This document shows positions 17,355-20,563 of a stretch of 20,563 bases of DNA, piece after piece. The DNA is from a virus (Duplodnaviria; Heunggongvirae; Uroviricota; Caudoviricetes). The number at the start of each line of letters is the position of its first letter. The stretch's first letter is position 1. Under the pieces are notes generated by a model. It saw only the letters and a list, made by a program, of their open reading frames with translations, ran no database searches and was not told where the DNA came from. The translations under genes and the position numbers were made by a program. The DNA lies in the IMG/VR virus record IMGVR_UViG_2974665086_000001, positions 118,700-139,262 of that record, one strand, 5' to 3'.

Positions 17355-17935
17355 CTTAATATCAAGACTGGGCAAAATGGCCGGGTGGATGAGAGTTATC
17401 GTCCATTCGGCCATAGCTATATATACAGATAGCTTAAGTTATAGAGAGAAACATAGAGAACTTAATACATTGAATGCAGCAAAAGCTTATGGCCGATGTT
17501 GTTATTTTTTTGACGATTAGAGCATCATAACTTAATAGGCAGCACAGAGCTTAGGACAACATAAGAACATAGCTCTAAAGTTATATAGTGTACCCCGTAC
17601 GTTGAAGCAAATAGAGTGCTGCATATAAGTTAATGCGCCATATAGGTCAGAGTGAATTTGAATCGGATAAGATTTCATTTCTAACACAAGTGTACTAGTA
17701 ATAGCGAAAAAGCTTATTTAAACTTAATGGCAAAAACTATGCAATTTTGATCAAAAAACAACAAAAATCGATCAAAATTCATCAAAAACAGCTTAATATC
17801 GGTCAAAAACGATGAAAACTTAATGCAGCTTAAATAGCTATGACTTAATGGCTATCCGAGCAGAAAAGTTTTGTTTTCATATAGCTATGGCAGGCACTTG
17901 TTGTTTTTATCGGGTTATTTATAGCTAGACTTAAT
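17353..17935. repeat. AT-rich non-coding region with dispersed ACTTAAT heptamers and phased A-tracts
   Basis: ACTTAAT at 17354, 17460, 17530, 17722, 17818, 17843 and 17929; A-tracts start at 17732, 17743, 17753, 17763, 17774, 17784, 17805 and 17815. Confidence 0.75.
17377..17414 (+). terminator. 16-bp RNA stem with three G-U pairs
   Basis: ATGGCCGGGTGGATGA-gagtta-TCGTCCATTCGGCCAT; all non-Watson-Crick pairs are G-U on the + strand. Confidence 0.5.
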
Positions 17936-17998
17936 GGCGACCCCGGCGAATTAAGTTATATGCCGGCCTCGCATCAATTTCAAATAATGTTTGTGCCG

Positions 17999-18201
17999 GC
18001 AGCTTAGCCTAACCTAACTAAGGATAGCCTATGCTAAGTAAGGTTAGGCTAACATAAGTAAGGTAAGCCATAGCTATATAAGGCAAGCCTTACCTATGTA
18101 AACGAGACCTAACATGACGTGAGATTCAAGTAAGCATAGCCATAGCTATATTGAAACAAGATTCATGTTAGGCAACACTAACTAAGCATGACCTTAGTTG
18201 A
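17999..18201. promoter_or_regulatory. Tandem array of IdeR/DtxR-type iron boxes, 20-bp period
   Basis: 19-mers vs TWAGGTWAGSCTWACCTWA: 17999 (16/19), 18019 (16/19), 18039 (18/19), 18059 (16/19), 18079 (17/19), 18099 (12/19); also 18131 (14/19), 18163 (14/19), 18183 (12/19). Confidence 0.8.
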
Positions 18202-18586
18202 ATCCAGATTCAAATTGATTGTATTAGCGATTGTACCAACTAGCAGCATTGAACTCGTAAGTCAACAGTCAATTTTGCTGCACTACGCGAGAAACATTAT
18301 TTGACAATTCTTGAAACGTTTGCTTTGCCGTCTCAGATCGATTCTAAGCGACTAATACCTTGTTTGCACACAATCGTACTAGGTATGCGCTGAAAGTCGC
18401 TTAGCGTGCATCGTCGCAGGTCAGAGTGTTAAGAAAACGAAAGAAACACTGGTGTGTGATCTATGTCATATTGACAATTGTTGAATCGATTCTGTATCCC
18501 GCGTCATGTGCACACCGCCCGGAGAACAAACGAGAACCATGCTACAAAGAATAATACAGAAACTGTGATGCAGATCACATAGACAA

Positions 18587-18928
18587 ATGTTGTTTCAAGT
18601 CTCGTTTGGGGGTAATGTTCTCGTTGTAAGGCAAACGGAAACGAGAACGGGGCAGACGATGAGTGAGCAAGCGATCCGCGATTACTGTGTTAAGCATTCT
18701 GACTTTTGGAAAGGCACTGTTGTGTCTACGTTCGTGTCCGACAACTCGCACTATGCCGTAGTTCAGTTTCGTGACGTTGTAACGGCGGCGCAGTGGCTCG
18801 AAGCACAACGTGACCCGGATGATGCACTCATGCGAGCACTCGGATTCCGCCAGCTCACAGGCGATCTGTACGGGCCGGTAATCAGTGTTTACGAACCGGC
18901 CAAAGTATGCGTTAAGTTCGCAGACTAG
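18587..18928 (+). CDS. Hypothetical protein
   Basis: 113 aa; true start may be ATG 18659 (MSEQAIRD). Confidence 0.65.
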   Translation: MLFQVSFGGNVLVVRQTETRTGQTMSEQAIRDYCVKHSDFWKGTVVSTFVSDNSHYAVVQFRDVVTAAQWLEAQRDPDDALMRALGFRQLTGDLYGPVISVYEPAKVCVKFAD

Positions 18929-18957
18929 TTCTTCCATTCTTTCAGGAAAGGTTCACA

Positions 18958-19335
18958 ATGATCACTCTCGCCAAAGAAACCGACTACATTACGATTACCG
19001 GAGTGCAAGCAATATCCTGCGCAATGGATATGCGTAAGGGCACCATCGAACAAACACGTTCGGGTCGTTGCTGCGATACCGGACCGTTCTCGAATACCAG
19101 GGAATCCGACCGGGAAGAATTGCTTTACTCGTTGCTGATCTGGCGCGATAGCCCGGAAAGAATCAGCATGACTTTTATTCCAGACCGTTTGTGGTCGGAT
19201 GCGCCCGATTGGAATAATCCGGTATCGGTAATGATCGATTCTGGCGATGCTTGCGAGCCACACGAATATCGGTTCGATTACGTTCCGCACGGTTTCCAGT
19301 GGCCCAACGAGAACATCGATAATCGCTACCTATAA
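18958..19335 (+). CDS. Hypothetical protein
   Basis: 125 aa, GGAAAGG RBS. Confidence 0.75.
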   Translation: MITLAKETDYITITGVQAISCAMDMRKGTIEQTRSGRCCDTGPFSNTRESDREELLYSLLIWRDSPERISMTFIPDRLWSDAPDWNNPVSVMIDSGDACEPHEYRFDYVPHGFQWPNENIDNRYL

Positions 19336-19421
19336 CCAGCACGCGGGCACATATGAGAGTGTGTGCCCTATGGTGGATATAGTTCGGCTACCAACACACA
19401 ACGCAAACAAAGGATAATACA

Positions 19422-20279
19422 ATGAGCGAGAACACTGTAACCCTCGAGAACGCTGCACCGATCAACCGTGACGATATTGCGTTCTCAAAGAACGATATGA
19501 CCACCGCCCGGTTCTGGGGTATCCGTGAGGGCATGATTAAGCCCGGAACCAAGGGCAAGACACACTCCGACGTTCTCGTTGCGTGGCATATGGCCGGTCG
19601 CCCGATTGTGGAAGCTCCCAAAGCGTGGAAGGTTCCCGCTACGGACAAGCACGCGTTCTCTGCCTACTGCGAGGCTAACTCGCTCGAGGCTACGGAATCG
19701 AACTACAACGCTTGGGTTGTAGAAGATAAGCCGTTGCCCGTTGGGTACTGGGCACCTGAGACCAAAGCACGCATTACGTTCATCGATTCCGACGGTACAG
19801 AATCGACCGTAGACGTATCAGAGGATAAGTTGCGTGAGACTCGACTCGAACTGTCAGGCTCGTTGAACGGTCGCCCGGAATCGCGTCACTACATCATGGC
19901 TGCACAGTTGAACACCGACCAGCGACCTGTGAGCATGACTACTGCCAATGGTGCCCAGCACACAATCCGCGAGGCTATGGAAGATGACAAGCCTGCCGAC
20001 GTAATGGCCGGTTTTGTAGTGGAATGGCAGAGTAAGCGAGACAGCAACGTACTGCTACACGCACAGATCGCAGAGCTGCACGCTGCTATCTTCACTGCAC
20101 TCTCAGAGCGTGATGATGCACGTGCACAGCTCGAGGCTATGACAGTCGAGCGTGATGCTTTGATCGCAGCACAGAGCAAGCCAGCACCTGCTAAGCGTGC
20201 AAGCACACGTAAGGCCCCGGCACAGACAAAGCGAGCACAGGCAGCACAGGCTCAAAGCGTTATCGACCTCGACGCATGA
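19422..20279 (+). CDS. 285-aa protein with N-terminal Lsr2-DBD-like motif, coiled coil and basic tail
   Basis: TARFWGIREGMIKPGTKGKTHSDVLVAWHMA resembles Lsr2 [30 protein letters not shown]; heptad region LHAQIAEL..VERDALIAA; tail PAKRASTRKAPA. Confidence 0.8.
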   Translation: MSENTVTLENAAPINRDDIAFSKNDMTTARFWGIREGMIKPGTKGKTHSDVLVAWHMAGRPIVEAPKAWKVPATDKHAFSAYCEANSLEATESNYNAWVVEDKPLPVGYWAPETKARITFIDSDGTESTVDVSEDKLRETRLELSGSLNGRPESRHYIMAAQLNTDQRPVSMTTANGAQHTIREAMEDDKPADVMAGFVVEWQSKRDSNVLLHAQIAELHAAIFTALSERDDARAQLEAMTVERDALIAAQSKPAPAKRASTRKAPAQTKRAQAAQAQSVIDLDA

Positions 20280-20343
20280 GCGAGCACGGAGCAATCGCAG
20301 TATTGCTTGGACTTGTCCACATCGAAAAAGTGATCGCGCTACT

Positions 20344-20366
20344 GATAGCGATAATCATTATCGCTA
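20344..20366. promoter_or_regulatory. Fur-family-like operator palindrome
   Basis: TAGCGATAAT-C-ATTATCGCTA (10-1-10); 20344-20362 matches the classical Fur box GATAATGATAATCATTATC at 17/19. Confidence 0.45.
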
Positions 20367-20387
20367 GTGTGATCTGACACACAACTA

Positions 20388-20419
20388 GCCCGGACTTGAA
20401 TTTAGTTTCAAGTCCGGGC
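20388..20419. repeat. 13-bp inverted repeat containing TTGAA-N6-TTCAA
   Basis: GCCCGGACTTGAA-tttagt-TTCAAGTCCGGGC. Confidence 0.8.
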
Positions 20420-20429
20420 AATGTCATAT

Positions 20430-20537
20430 GTAGGTAAGCCTAAGTTAGGTAAGGCAATGCTAAGTTGAACTCGGATTCAAGTAAGGCCGGCCTTACCTAA
20501 GTTGAATCTCGTTTCAAGTAAGGGCAGGCTAACCTAA
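20430..20537. promoter_or_regulatory. Second IdeR/DtxR-type box array, 37-bp period, alternating with TTGAA-N6-TTCAA
   Basis: Boxes at 20430 (15/19), 20445 (16/19), 20482 (16/19) and 20519 (17/19); TTGAA-N6-TTCAA at 20465 and 20502. Confidence 0.8.
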
Positions 20538-20563
20538 GTGACGGAGGTCACCTTCCCCTACAT

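What the first reader, a model, noticed from the sequence alone, without database searches (positions are those of the whole stretch)
20430..20537. Second iron-box array with a 37-bp composite unit (iron box plus a second palindrome)
Seen: units at 20445, 20482 and 20519 follow [19-bp IdeR-like box]-G-[TTGAA-N6-TTCAA]-G, repeating every 37 bp, with an extra overlapping box at 20430. The boxes TTAGGTAAGGCAATGCTAA, TAAGGCCGGCCTTACCTAA and TAAGGGCAGGCTAACCTAA match the consensus 16-17/19. The architecture differs from the 20-bp array 2.4 kb upstream but uses the same two motifs, so this is not a simple duplication. Inference: two different dimeric proteins bind in strict alternation, forming an ordered nucleoprotein scaffold.
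Basis: partly seen in the sequence, partly recalled or inferred. Interest (0 to 1): 0.85.

Follow-up and report, generated by a model that had tools for sequence, protein, structure and literature searches.

The report
Iron-repressor site array at phage end
The last 110 bases or so before the right end of Rhodococcus phage Trina's genome are a conserved, evenly spaced row of near-perfect binding sites for the host's iron sensor IdeR, alternating with a second palindrome; this suggests the lytic phage loads a host metal regulator and a second protein onto its DNA end, but no binding or function has been tested.

Summary
Three 19-bp boxes at 20445, 20482 and 20519 sit 37 bp apart. TTGAA-N6-TTCAA palindromes lie between them, and a short unit lies at 20430.

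The window is the right end of Rhodococcus phage Trina. Both arrays lie inside its exact 2,860-bp direct terminal repeat (DTR), and array 2 ends 26 bp before the physical right end.

The boxes are iron boxes by sequence:
- Their profile, defined by phase alone, matches chromosomal tandem IdeR operators that flank ferritin and siderophore genes (r = 0.95 on unconstrained positions).
- Box 20519 fits a strict consensus that 31 Rhodococcus-genus genomes never match.
- The phage encodes no DtxR-type domain.

Metagenomic relatives keep the module. In a 92% relative, 81 nt are identical. A 57% relative keeps the same unit and the same 26-nt distance, and its contig ends at the same base. NiceHouse has the alternating units only in its left array.

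Best reading: host IdeR and an unknown dimer build a phased complex at the DTR's right boundary. I favour a role in end formation, weakly. Lsr2 counter-silencing, IdeR titration and origin iterons remain open. Nothing has been tested for binding.

This scan noted DtxR-type site arrays in other phages before. The terminal position and the alternation are new here.

The parts
17704..20563 (.). Right copy of the exact 2,860-bp direct terminal repeat (DTR) of the 139,262-bp genome. It is identical to genome 1-2860.
   Evidence: prefix equals suffix over 2,860 b with 0 mismatches.
17704..17998 (+). AT-rich left terminal stretch of the DTR (35% GC), with four same-strand ACTTAATG repeats at 17722, 17818, 17843 and 17929. 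The left terminus GCGAA.AAG..ACTTAATG is conserved in NiceHouse.
17999..18117 (.). Array 1, proximal part: six 19-bp iron-box-like units at an exact 20-bp period.
   Evidence: The same place holds boxes in NiceHouse (283-402), L111, L106, and one box in Dorin and Francesca.
18114..18213 (.). Array 1, distal part: degenerate composite units. Boxes at 18131 and 18168 alternate with TTGAA-N6-TTCAA-type palindromes at 18114, 18151 and 18198.
   Evidence: (D2).
18587..20279 (+). Three DTR genes of 113, 125 and 285 aa, at 53% GC against a genome mean of 44.7%. The 285-aa product has an N-terminal Lsr2-type DNA-binding domain, with KGK in place of RGR.
20276..20368 (+). Small ORF for a hydrophobic peptide of about 30 aa. 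It holds the perfect 21-bp palindrome TAGCGATAATCATTATCGCTA (20346-20366), which has a Fur-type 7-1-7 core.
   Evidence: The palindrome stays perfect in L106 after two paired substitutions.
20388..20419 (+). 13-bp-stem hairpin CCCGGACTTGAA-TTTAGT-TTCAAGTCCGGG. It looks like a terminator without a T-run, and its core is a TTGAA-N6-TTCAA palindrome.
   Evidence: -26 kcal/mol, z = -7.9..
20430..20444 (.). Short unit GTAGGTAAGCCTAAG. It fits the 14-bp one-dimer IdeR site TTAGGNNNNCCTAA at 9 of 10 specified positions.
   Evidence: PMC8464063.
20445..20463 (.). Iron box A, TTAGGTAAGGCAATGCTAA. Three of its four CCTAA-type quintets meet the T3 plus C1/2 rule.
   Evidence: (inner score 6.2 bits, null fraction 0.003).
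20465..20480 (.). Second palindrome TTGAACTCGGATTCAA.
   Evidence: Identical in L106.
20482..20500 (.). Iron box B, TAAGGCCGGCCTTACCTAA. Three of four quintets meet the rule.
20502..20517 (.). Second palindrome TTGAATCTCGTTTCAA.
   Evidence: Identical in L106; CTGAATCTCGTTTCAA in L109.
20519..20537 (.). Iron box C, TAAGGGCAGGCTAACCTAA. All four quintets meet the rule and it has 0 mismatches to TWAGGNNAGSCTNNCCTWA. It is identical in Trina, L106 and L109.
20538..20563 (+). Terminal 26 nt: G, GTGAC-GGAG-GTCAC, CTTCCCCTACAT, then the physical right end. L109 has the same length and the same ...CCTACAT end, and its contig stops at that base.

Best explanation
Array 2 is a conserved cis-acting protein-loading site at the right boundary of phage Trina's direct terminal repeat. 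It consists of one short and three full operators of the host iron-dependent regulator IdeR (DtxR family), interleaved at 18.5-bp centre-to-centre spacing with two copies of a second 16-bp palindrome. Shown: the sequence, the phasing, the position 26 bp from the physical end, the match to genuine iron boxes, and the conservation in relatives. Inferred: Fe-loaded host IdeR occupies the boxes, with two dimers on box C and at least one on each other box, and an unidentified dimeric protein occupies the TTGAA-N6-TTCAA sites. Together they would form a phased complex of about 110 bp. Most speculative step: this complex serves genome-end formation. It would work as a landmark or brake beside the right-end cut, much as IHF and terminase sites form cosB next to cosN in lambda. 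An alternative use of the same position is to cover the DNA end.
For: Position. The DTR is exact, and array 2 ends 26 bp from the genome end.
Iron-box identity:
- 20-bp tandem boxes of this type are native actinobacterial operators. A scan found 46 loci, 42 of them actinobacterial, beside ferritin, FTR1, isochorismatase, Lys/Orn monooxygenase and siderophore-binding genes.
- A phage box profile defined by phase alone correlates with the chromosomal profile at r = 0.95 on the unconstrained positions 6-14. A permutation null reaches this in 0.0002 of trials. W at positions 2/18 and S at position 10 are shared.
- Inner-position scores of boxes A, B and C fall within the range of true operators.
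- Box C matches a strict consensus with no hit in 31 host-genus genomes. Six sites with 2 or fewer mismatches sit in 2.86 kb, against 7-28 per whole host-genus genome.
- The quintet rule of PMC8464063 is met for 10 of 12 quintets.
- The phage has no PF01325 domain at E <= 1. The isolation host has ideR (PMC10986025).
Conservation tied to the end:
- In L106/L107, positions 20463-20543 are 100% identical over 81 nt, while the DTR overall is about 90% identical.
- L109, whose neighbouring protein is 57% identical, keeps box, 1 nt, palindrome, 1 nt, box C and then 26 nt to ...CCTACAT, where its contig ends.
- The first box changed in L106 on both halves to the perfect dyad TAAGCAT-AGGCA-ATGCTTA.
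- The alternation of the two motifs recurs in NiceHouse and L111.
Parallel case. Unrelated Corynebacterium phage Kimchi1738 has a large array of one-dimer DtxR-type sites ending about 85 bp from its right end.
Against: No binding data exist for IdeR or for any other protein. NiceHouse, L111, Dorin and Francesca have no array at their right DTR boundary. Boxes are therefore not required for end formation in the wider group, although the unique-side sequence CACTT.CATA..TGTTCAATTTT is conserved there. Array 1, which is the better conserved array across clusters, lies about 290 bp from the left end, far for a cut-site accessory. IdeR is not known to act in packaging in any system. The coincidence of the contig end rests on one Logan contig. 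The second palindrome has no identified binder.
Confidence: 0.35

Rival explanations
1. Counter-silencing or boundary element. IdeR-Fe loaded on the two arrays keeps the host xenogeneic silencer Lsr2 from spreading out of the AT-rich flanks into the early three-gene cassette of the DTR. IdeR does this at the four tandem iron boxes upstream of M. tuberculosis bfrB.
For: Tandem iron boxes that displace Lsr2 are an established mechanism (PMC9132128; PMC5855569). The phage is 44.7% GC, against about 62% for the host (from my own knowledge, not checked here), so it is a likely Lsr2 target. The arrays bracket a 53% GC cassette, with flanks at 35-38% GC. The last large gene of the cassette has an Lsr2-type DNA-binding domain: its family profile hits PDB 6QKP and 2KNG at E = 4e-5, and the Dorin homologue passes Pfam PF23359. 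In Kimchi1738, five 20-bp boxes sit between an extreme AT tract and a TTGACA-17-TATAGT promoter.
Against: No sigma-70-type promoter was found on the + strand downstream of either Trina array. Array 2 is followed by the genome end, or in the junction form by the 3' ends of converging genes, so there is nothing obvious for it to activate. NiceHouse and Dorin have more than 1 kb between array 1 and their first gene. This model does not explain the fixed 26-nt distance to the end.
Confidence: 0.25
2. Decoy or sponge. The many high-affinity boxes, about 11 per DTR and two DTRs per genome, multiplied by replication, titrate IdeR-Fe. This would derepress host iron uptake and feed the phage's iron-dependent enzymes such as ribonucleotide reductase.
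For: Box density is about 1000 times that of host-genus genomes, and box quality equals or exceeds the best sites found in them. The phage encodes RNR. Infection of the same host strain by an unrelated phage raises siderophore transporter expression and lowers bacterioferritin expression, which is the signature of an IdeR-off state (PMC10986025). Earlier notes of this scan proposed the same idea for gut phages.
Against: A sponge needs no fixed phase, no second palindrome in strict alternation, and no fixed distance to the genome end. All three features are conserved. The transcriptome paper concerns a different phage, which I did not check for boxes.
Confidence: 0.1
3. The boxes are iterons for a phage-encoded protein that happens to share IdeR's specificity. 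They would mark a replication origin or a partition site in the terminal repeat.
For: Array 1 resembles a lambda-type origin, with an AT-rich stretch followed by 5-6 dyad-symmetric units about two turns apart. Kimchi1738 has the same layout in a divergent intergenic region.
Against: No DtxR-type domain is present in the phage. Trina and Kimchi1738 share only DnaE, RNR and ThyX-like proteins by tblastn, so no common DNA-binding protein exists that could explain the same motif in both. Matching the host operator position by position, including the W and S degeneracies, is not expected for an unrelated protein. The cumulative GC-skew minimum is near 21 kb and the maximum is at the DTR. Array 2 has no adjacent AT-rich unwinding stretch inside the DTR.
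Confidence: 0.12
4. Entry control. The array at the DTR's inner boundary acts like the T5 injection stop signal, or alternatively as a ratchet or end cap on whichever DNA end enters the cell first. In each case the mechanism is binding of an abundant host protein.
For: The T5 LTR carries conserved pairs of host DnaA boxes with palindromes near its inner end, proposed to be the stop signal (bioRxiv 10.1101/866236). In Trina, array 2 is both the inner boundary of the left DTR copy and the extreme right tip of the virion DNA.
Against: Two-step transfer is not known for these phages. The T5 model is itself unproven. NiceHouse lacks the array at this boundary.
Confidence: 0.08

Closest known systems
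IdeR/DtxR iron boxes of Actinobacteria, including tandem boxes (four upstream of M. tuberculosis bfrB)
   Same: The 19-bp dyad and the position-specific profile are the same. The 1-nt spacer between tandem boxes is the same as in array 1. The CCTAA quintet rule is met, and a one-dimer 14-bp variant is present.
   Different: These boxes lie in a lytic phage's terminal repeat, next to the DNA end, with no promoter found nearby. There are up to six in a row, and they alternate with a second palindrome at a 37-bp period. Chromosomal arrays found here had two boxes.
DtxR-controlled tox operator of corynephage beta (recalled from the literature, not tested here)
   Same: It is a host iron-repressor operator carried on phage DNA.
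   Different: It is a single operator over one promoter of a temperate phage's cargo gene. It is not an array at a genome terminus.
Lambda cosB (gpNu1 R sites interleaved with the IHF site I1, next to cosN)
   Same: Sites for a host DNA-binding protein and for a second protein alternate within about 100 bp of the end-forming cut.
   Different: No terminase binding is shown here. The host factor would be a metal-sensing repressor, not a DNA-bending protein. The phage is a DTR phage, not a cos phage, and the array lies on the right-end side.
T5 injection-stop region (DnaA-box pairs and palindromes in the long terminal repeat)
   Same: Conserved clusters of host-protein boxes and palindromes lie in non-coding DNA near the inner end of a direct terminal repeat.
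   Different: The host protein and the motif differ. The T5 function is itself only proposed. Two-step entry is unknown for Trina.
DtxR-type operator arrays noted earlier in this scan in gut or rumen phages and in one actinophage (e1-1601589, e1-1607233, e1-1930364, e1-1620489, e1-1936320)
   Same: They are head-to-tail arrays of host metal-repressor sites in phage non-coding DNA.
   Different: Those lie between early genes. Here the array sits inside a DTR 26 bp from the physical end, and it is interleaved with a second operator.

Membership tests
IdeR/DtxR iron box (operator) | 19-bp dyad matching TTAGGTTAGSCTAACCTAA | tested here: met
   Boxes A, B and C match at 15, 15 and 17 of 19 with W at positions 2 and 18. 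The consensus is quoted in PMC4598388 and PMC8464063.
IdeR/DtxR iron box (operator) | Each of the four CCTAA-type quintets has T at position 3 and C at position 1 or 2 (PMC8464063) | tested here: met
   Box C meets the rule in 4 of 4 quintets, box B in 3 of 4 (quintet 2 fails) and box A in 3 of 4 (quintet 3 fails). Every box keeps at least one complete dimer site (reading).
IdeR/DtxR iron box (operator) | Position-specific profile equal to that of operators at iron genes | tested here: met
   r = 0.95 on unconstrained positions 6-14 against 84 chromosomal boxes that flank ferritin, FTR1 and siderophore genes. The permutation null reaches this in 0.0002 of trials.
IdeR/DtxR iron box (operator) | A cognate DtxR-family regulator is present in the cell | tested here: met
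   An ideR homologue is reported in R. erythropolis RIA-643 (PMC10986025). The phage itself has none (PF01325).
IdeR/DtxR iron box (operator) | Metal-dependent binding by IdeR | not testable with these tools
   This needs EMSA or footprinting.
IdeR/DtxR iron box (operator) | Placed over a promoter (repression) or upstream of one (activation) | tested here: inconclusive
   No + strand sigma-70-type promoter was found in the DTR by a simple scan. Array 2 is followed by the genome end.
cosB-like terminase assembly site | Lies beside the end-forming cut and is conserved together with it | tested here: met
   The distance to the end is 26 nt in both Trina and L109, and the terminal module is identical or nearly so in L106 and L109.
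cosB-like terminase assembly site | Present at the same boundary in all relatives that share the packaging system | tested here: not met
   It is absent at the right DTR boundary of NiceHouse, L111, Dorin and Francesca.
cosB-like terminase assembly site | Bound by the small terminase subunit | not testable with these tools
   No small terminase subunit was identified, and no binding assay is available.
Iteron-type replication origin | Phased repeats next to an AT-rich unwinding stretch, together with a cognate initiator gene | tested here: not met
   Array 2 has no AT-rich stretch inside the DTR. No initiator or shared DNA-binding protein was found. The skew minimum is at about 21 kb.
T5-type injection stop signal | Host-protein boxes at the inner end of the terminal repeat, plus two-step DNA transfer | tested here: inconclusive
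   The position matches. The transfer mode is unknown, and no A1/A2 homologues were sought.

The most novel reading that the evidence does not exclude
Lytic actinophages use the host's iron sensor as a structural part of their genome ends. Fe-loaded IdeR/DtxR, bound to operator arrays next to the physical terminus, would gate end formation, end protection or DNA entry, so that productive infection reads the cell's iron status. In Trina these are 19-bp boxes alternating with a second operator. In Corynebacterium phage Kimchi1738 they are dozens of 14-bp one-dimer sites. The two lineages would have reached this independently.
Probability: 0.2. Interest if true: 0.85.

Novelty: new variant of a known kind. 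Interest (0 to 1): 0.68.

Why it matters
Iron boxes are known as promoter operators, and on phage DNA only as the single tox operator of corynephage beta. Here a lytic phage carries the best iron boxes seen among those searched. They are arrayed at fixed phase with a second operator, inside its terminal repeat and 26 bp from the DNA end, and they are conserved in relatives whose neighbouring protein has drifted to 57% identity. If IdeR binds, this would be a new use of a host metal sensor by a virus, whether as a structural factor, an anti-silencer or a decoy. It would link phage development or host iron uptake to iron supply. It would also give a simple handle on how long terminal repeats are delimited in actinophages, which is unknown. 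One EMSA with a well-studied protein would test the first step.

Tried and rejected
- Near and distant BLAST of the DTR and of array 2 against the phage collection found nothing for array 2. The left 600 bp hit only the Corynebacterium phage arrays.
- IMG/VR pattern scans for the composite unit and for two-box units gave only chance hits, plus one Kimchi-like contig, L032. The search for related loci with the 285-aa protein found nothing in IMG/VR.
- The first JGI metagenome scan found nothing. The second found only the NiceHouse-like contig L111.
- Rfam found no RNA family in the DTR. As RNA, the array folds only modestly better than shuffles (z = -2.3), so I dropped an RNA-element reading.
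- I considered and rejected CRISPR-like and coding readings. The units are too short, and no ORF spans 20428-20563.
- A phage-encoded DtxR-type protein was not found.
- Host regulon for TTGAA-N6-TTCAA: the motif is no commoner than its reversed control in 31 Rhodococcus-genus genomes. Two genomes have TTGAATCCRGATTCAA upstream of an acyl-CoA dehydrogenase gene; in one of them a TetR-family gene lies next to it. That is a lead, not an identification.
- I compared the second palindrome from memory with Zur (N7 spacing), LexA, ARG-box, Rex, CRP/FNR and HAIR motifs. None fits in both spacing and half-site. These comparisons were not tested with tools.
- DTR proteins as binders of the second palindrome: the 113-aa and 125-aa genes do not co-occur with the motif in NiceHouse or L109.
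- The Streptomyces relatives Coruscant, Annadreamy and Evy, and the cluster CB phages Weasels2 and Peregrin, have no boxes.
- Sequencing runs were available only as contigs, so read termini could not be mapped.
- Kurthkoti et al. 2015 could not be read. I took its content from two reviews, which disagree on two versus four boxes.

Full report
**What the window is**

The window is the last 20,563 b of a 139,262-b virus record that has an exact 2,860-b direct terminal repeat (DTR). Window 17704-20563 equals genome 1-2860 with no mismatch. Trina is a lytic cluster CE siphophage isolated on R. erythropolis (PMC13313380). That paper mentions neither iron boxes nor palindromes.

Both 'iron-box' arrays therefore lie inside the DTR. 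Array 1 is at DTR positions 296-510. Array 2 is at 2727-2834 and ends 26 b before the physical right end. There is no sequence beyond 20563 to examine. In the junction form, seen in the left DTR copy and in metagenomic contigs, no further unit follows.

- Tandem Repeats Finder reports a 37-bp period at 20460-20539 (score 109) and a 20-bp period at 18004-18101.
- A degenerate box pattern gives 13 strand-matches at seven sites, all in the two arrays, against 0.45 expected.
- The second palindrome is exact four times in the DTR.
- Across the whole genome, every match of 16/19 or better lies in the DTR. The unique part reaches 15/19 at one site and 14/19 at three.

Several points need correcting.
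- Identities are 14-17 of 19, not 16-17.
- The last unit has no second palindrome after it.
- The unit at 20430 is a short 14-bp site, not a 19-bp box.
- Array 1 already contains degenerate 37-bp units in its distal part.

**Are the boxes iron boxes?**

I tested this without relying on the recalled consensus.

Chromosomal reference set. A scan of one genome per prokaryote species for two TWAGG-N9-CCTWA units 1 nt apart returned 46 loci, 42 of them actinobacterial. Sampled flanking genes were ferritin, FTR1 iron permease, isochorismatase, Lys/Orn N-monooxygenase, a formyltransferase and a siderophore-binding protein. Pairs of 19-bp boxes at a 20-bp period are therefore a native operator layout of the actinobacterial iron repressor.

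Comparison with the phage boxes. The inner positions 6-14 were not fixed by that scan, and they show A8, G9, S10, C11, T12 with degenerate 6, 7, 13 and 14.
- Phage boxes chosen by phase alone (23 boxes from Trina, NiceHouse, L111 and L109) give the same matrix. The correlation is r = 0.95, and a permutation null reaches this in 0.0002 of trials. The A/T mix at positions 2 and 18 is also the same.
- Boxes A, B and C score 6.2, 3.8 and 6.7 bits on the inner positions. True operators average 6.2 bits. The fraction of the genome-wide null reaching these scores is 0.003, 0.011 and 0.002.
- The strict pattern TWAGGNNAGSCTNNCCTWA has no match in 31 genomes of the host genus. Box C matches it perfectly.
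- With up to two mismatches, those genomes hold 7-28 sites each. The 2.86-kb DTR holds six.

Structural rule. Structural work shows that each IdeR subunit reads one CCTAA quintet. Each quintet needs T at position 3 and C at position 1 or 2. One dimer can also bind a 14-bp TTAGGNNNNCCTAA site (PMC8464063). By this rule box C has four good quintets and boxes A and B have three each. The unit at 20430 is a one-dimer site.

Who would bind. The phage has no DtxR-type domain. The isolation host has ideR (PMC10986025). I conclude that the boxes are IdeR-type operators by every sequence criterion available. Binding itself is untested.

**The second palindrome**

Its consensus over about 15 copies in Trina, L106, L109, NiceHouse and L111 is nTGAAynnnGwTTCAA. 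In host-genus genomes it is no commoner than a reversed control. In two of those genomes a near-identical site precedes an acyl-CoA dehydrogenase gene, and in one of them a TetR-family gene lies next to it. None of the DTR genes tracks its presence across relatives. Its binder is unknown.

**Relatives**

Array 1:
- NiceHouse (same cluster) has a homologous left terminus and an array at 283-560. That array has three plus two 20-bp boxes followed by four alternating box/palindrome units. This block is the best conserved part of the non-coding left end.
- The JGI contig L111 is NiceHouse-like and shows the same layout.
- Dorin and Francesca keep one box at 284/285.
- None of these has boxes at the right DTR boundary.
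- Cluster CB phages and the Streptomyces relatives have no boxes.

Array 2 is kept in Trina's own lineage, which I recovered from public assemblies through the neighbouring 285-aa protein.
- L106/L107 (92% protein identity, wastewater). The contig runs through the DTR's right end into the unique left region. Positions 20463-20543 are identical over 81 nt, while the DTR as a whole is about 90% identical. Box A has changed on both halves into the perfect dyad TAAGCAT-AGGCA-ATGCTTA.
- L109 (57% identity). After a different terminator come box, T, CTGAATCTCGTTTCAA, G and box C, which is identical to Trina's. Then follow 26 nt ending ...CCTACAT, where the contig stops at the same base as Trina's genome end.
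- L110 (58% identity). It breaks off inside a box at the same place.

In array 1, most Trina/L106 differences fall at degenerate, W or S positions, or move a box toward the consensus. I counted these by eye.

**A parallel in unrelated phages**

The left part of the DTR hit Corynebacterium phages Kimchi1738, C3PO and Cruella (67 kb, Zierdtviridae).
- Kimchi1738 has five 20-bp-phased boxes (16-18 of 19) directly after an (ATAAAT)n tract and about 110 bp before a TTGACA-17-TATAGT promoter.
- It also has two large arrays of 15-bp units of the form CCTAAGTTAGGNNNN. The second ends about 85 bp from the right genome end.
- These units are perfect 14-bp one-dimer sites in the sense of PMC8464063.
- Trina and Kimchi1738 share only DnaE, RNR and ThyX-like proteins. 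A common phage-encoded binder is therefore unlikely, and a conserved host factor is the simpler explanation.

Earlier notes of this scan describe DtxR-type site arrays in gut and rumen phages and in one other actinophage. The theme recurs. The terminal-repeat position and the alternation are particular to this case.

**Context inside the DTR**

From left to right the DTR contains:
- an AT-rich left end with four ACTTAATG repeats;
- array 1;
- two copies of TTGACAATTSTTGAAWCG;
- three genes at 53% GC;
- a small hydrophobic ORF that holds a perfect 21-bp Fur-type palindrome, kept perfect in L106 by two paired substitutions;
- a strong hairpin;
- array 2;
- the genome end.

The 285-aa protein is the only DTR gene shared with all relatives. 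Its family profile hits the Lsr2 DNA-binding domain structures at E = 4e-5, with KGK replacing the RGR hook in Trina's lineage. The Dorin homologue passes the Pfam Lsr2_DNA-bd cut-off.

**Mechanism**

I hold with fair confidence (about 0.7) that array 2 is a selected, phased protein-binding array made of IdeR-type operators plus a second operator.

What the array does is open. I favour a terminus-linked role at 0.35. The reasons are that the terminal module and its 26-nt distance to the end are what is conserved down to 57% protein identity, and that Kimchi1738 also places its array against the right end. The closest analogy is lambda cosB, where host-factor sites and terminase sites alternate beside the cut. 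The main objection is that NiceHouse-type relatives lack the array at this boundary.

The strongest rival (0.25) is Lsr2 counter-silencing or insulation. IdeR on tandem boxes displaces Lsr2 at bfrB. The arrays bracket a GC-richer early cassette that encodes an Lsr2-domain protein, and the phage is AT-rich for its host. However, I found no promoter for array 2 to serve.

The other rivals are less likely.
- IdeR titration (0.1) fits the box number, and it fits the iron-uptake derepression seen with another phage in the same host. It does not explain the fixed phase or position.
- Origin iterons bound by a phage protein (0.12) are disfavoured by the missing initiator, the exact host-operator profile and the GC skew.
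- T5-like entry control (0.08) is possible but rests on an unproven model.

**Novelty and verdict**

The parts are known kinds: iron boxes, tandem boxes, and host-factor sites in phage ends. Their combination is new as far as the searched papers show. That combination is an array of host iron-repressor operators alternating with a second operator, inside a lytic phage's terminal repeat and against the DNA end. I rate it a new variant of a known kind. The interest is fairly high because the first step can be tested with one gel shift.

Noticed in passing
L023:3495-3600 (Kimchi1738 60,344-60,442); L025:27770-28250 and L025:31220-31830: Corynebacterium phages Kimchi1738, C3PO and Cruella carry five 20-bp-phased DtxR boxes right after an (ATAAAT)n tract. 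They also carry two arrays of about 25 and about 40 15-bp units CCTAAGTTAGGNNNN, which are perfect 14-bp one-dimer IdeR/DtxR sites. The last array ends about 85 bp from the right genome end.
   Followed up: partly
window 20346-20366: There is a perfect 10-1-10 palindrome, TAGCGATAATCATTATCGCTA, with a Fur-type 7-1-7 core, inside the small membrane-peptide ORF. In the 92% relative L106 it reads TAACGATAATCATTATCGTTA. These are two paired, non-synonymous substitutions that keep the palindrome perfect. It is absent in L109 and L110.
   Followed up: partly
window 19422-20279: The 285-aa DTR protein is the only DTR gene shared with Weasels2, Dorin, Francesca, NiceHouse and the metagenomic relatives. 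It has an N-terminal Lsr2-type DNA-binding domain (profile against PDB 6QKP/2KNG, E = 4e-5), with KGK instead of the RGR hook. The rest is a coiled-coil-like region and a basic tail.
   Followed up: partly
window 17722, 17818, 17843, 17929: Four same-strand copies of ACTTAATG lie in the first 235 b of the DTR (7 in the window against 0.9 expected). The repeat and the terminal GCGAA.AAG are conserved in NiceHouse and L111. They are candidate left-end recognition elements.
   Followed up: partly
window 18301-18318 and 18471-18488: Two copies of TTGACAATTSTTGAAWCG lie between array 1 and the first DTR gene. The first is followed by TTTGCTTTGCCG.CT.AGA....TCTAAGCGA, which is also present in Dorin (about 735-790). 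No matching -10 hexamer was found, and the function is unknown.
   Followed up: no
window 18650-18924: In the wastewater relative (contigs up to 136 kb, about 90-93% identical), 273 b inside the 113-aa gene are replaced by 183 unrelated letters. Relatives of Trina therefore circulate in wastewater and soil metagenomes.
   Followed up: no
whole record; PMC13313380: The paper's text gives 5,291 bp as the terminal repeat of 'NiceHouse and Trina'. The records show 5,291 bp for NiceHouse and 2,860 bp for Trina.
   Followed up: yes
L101:1501-1516, L087:1501-1516: In two Rhodococcus-genus genomes, TTGAATCCRGATTCAA lies about 50 bp upstream of an acyl-CoA dehydrogenase gene. This is identical or nearly identical to Trina's 18198 palindrome. 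In L087 a TetR-family gene lies next to it. It is a possible operator class for the second palindrome.
   Followed up: partly
genome-wide: Cumulative GC skew has its minimum near 21 kb and its maximum at the DTR. In the junction form, the point where + strand and - strand genes converge coincides with array 2.
   Followed up: no
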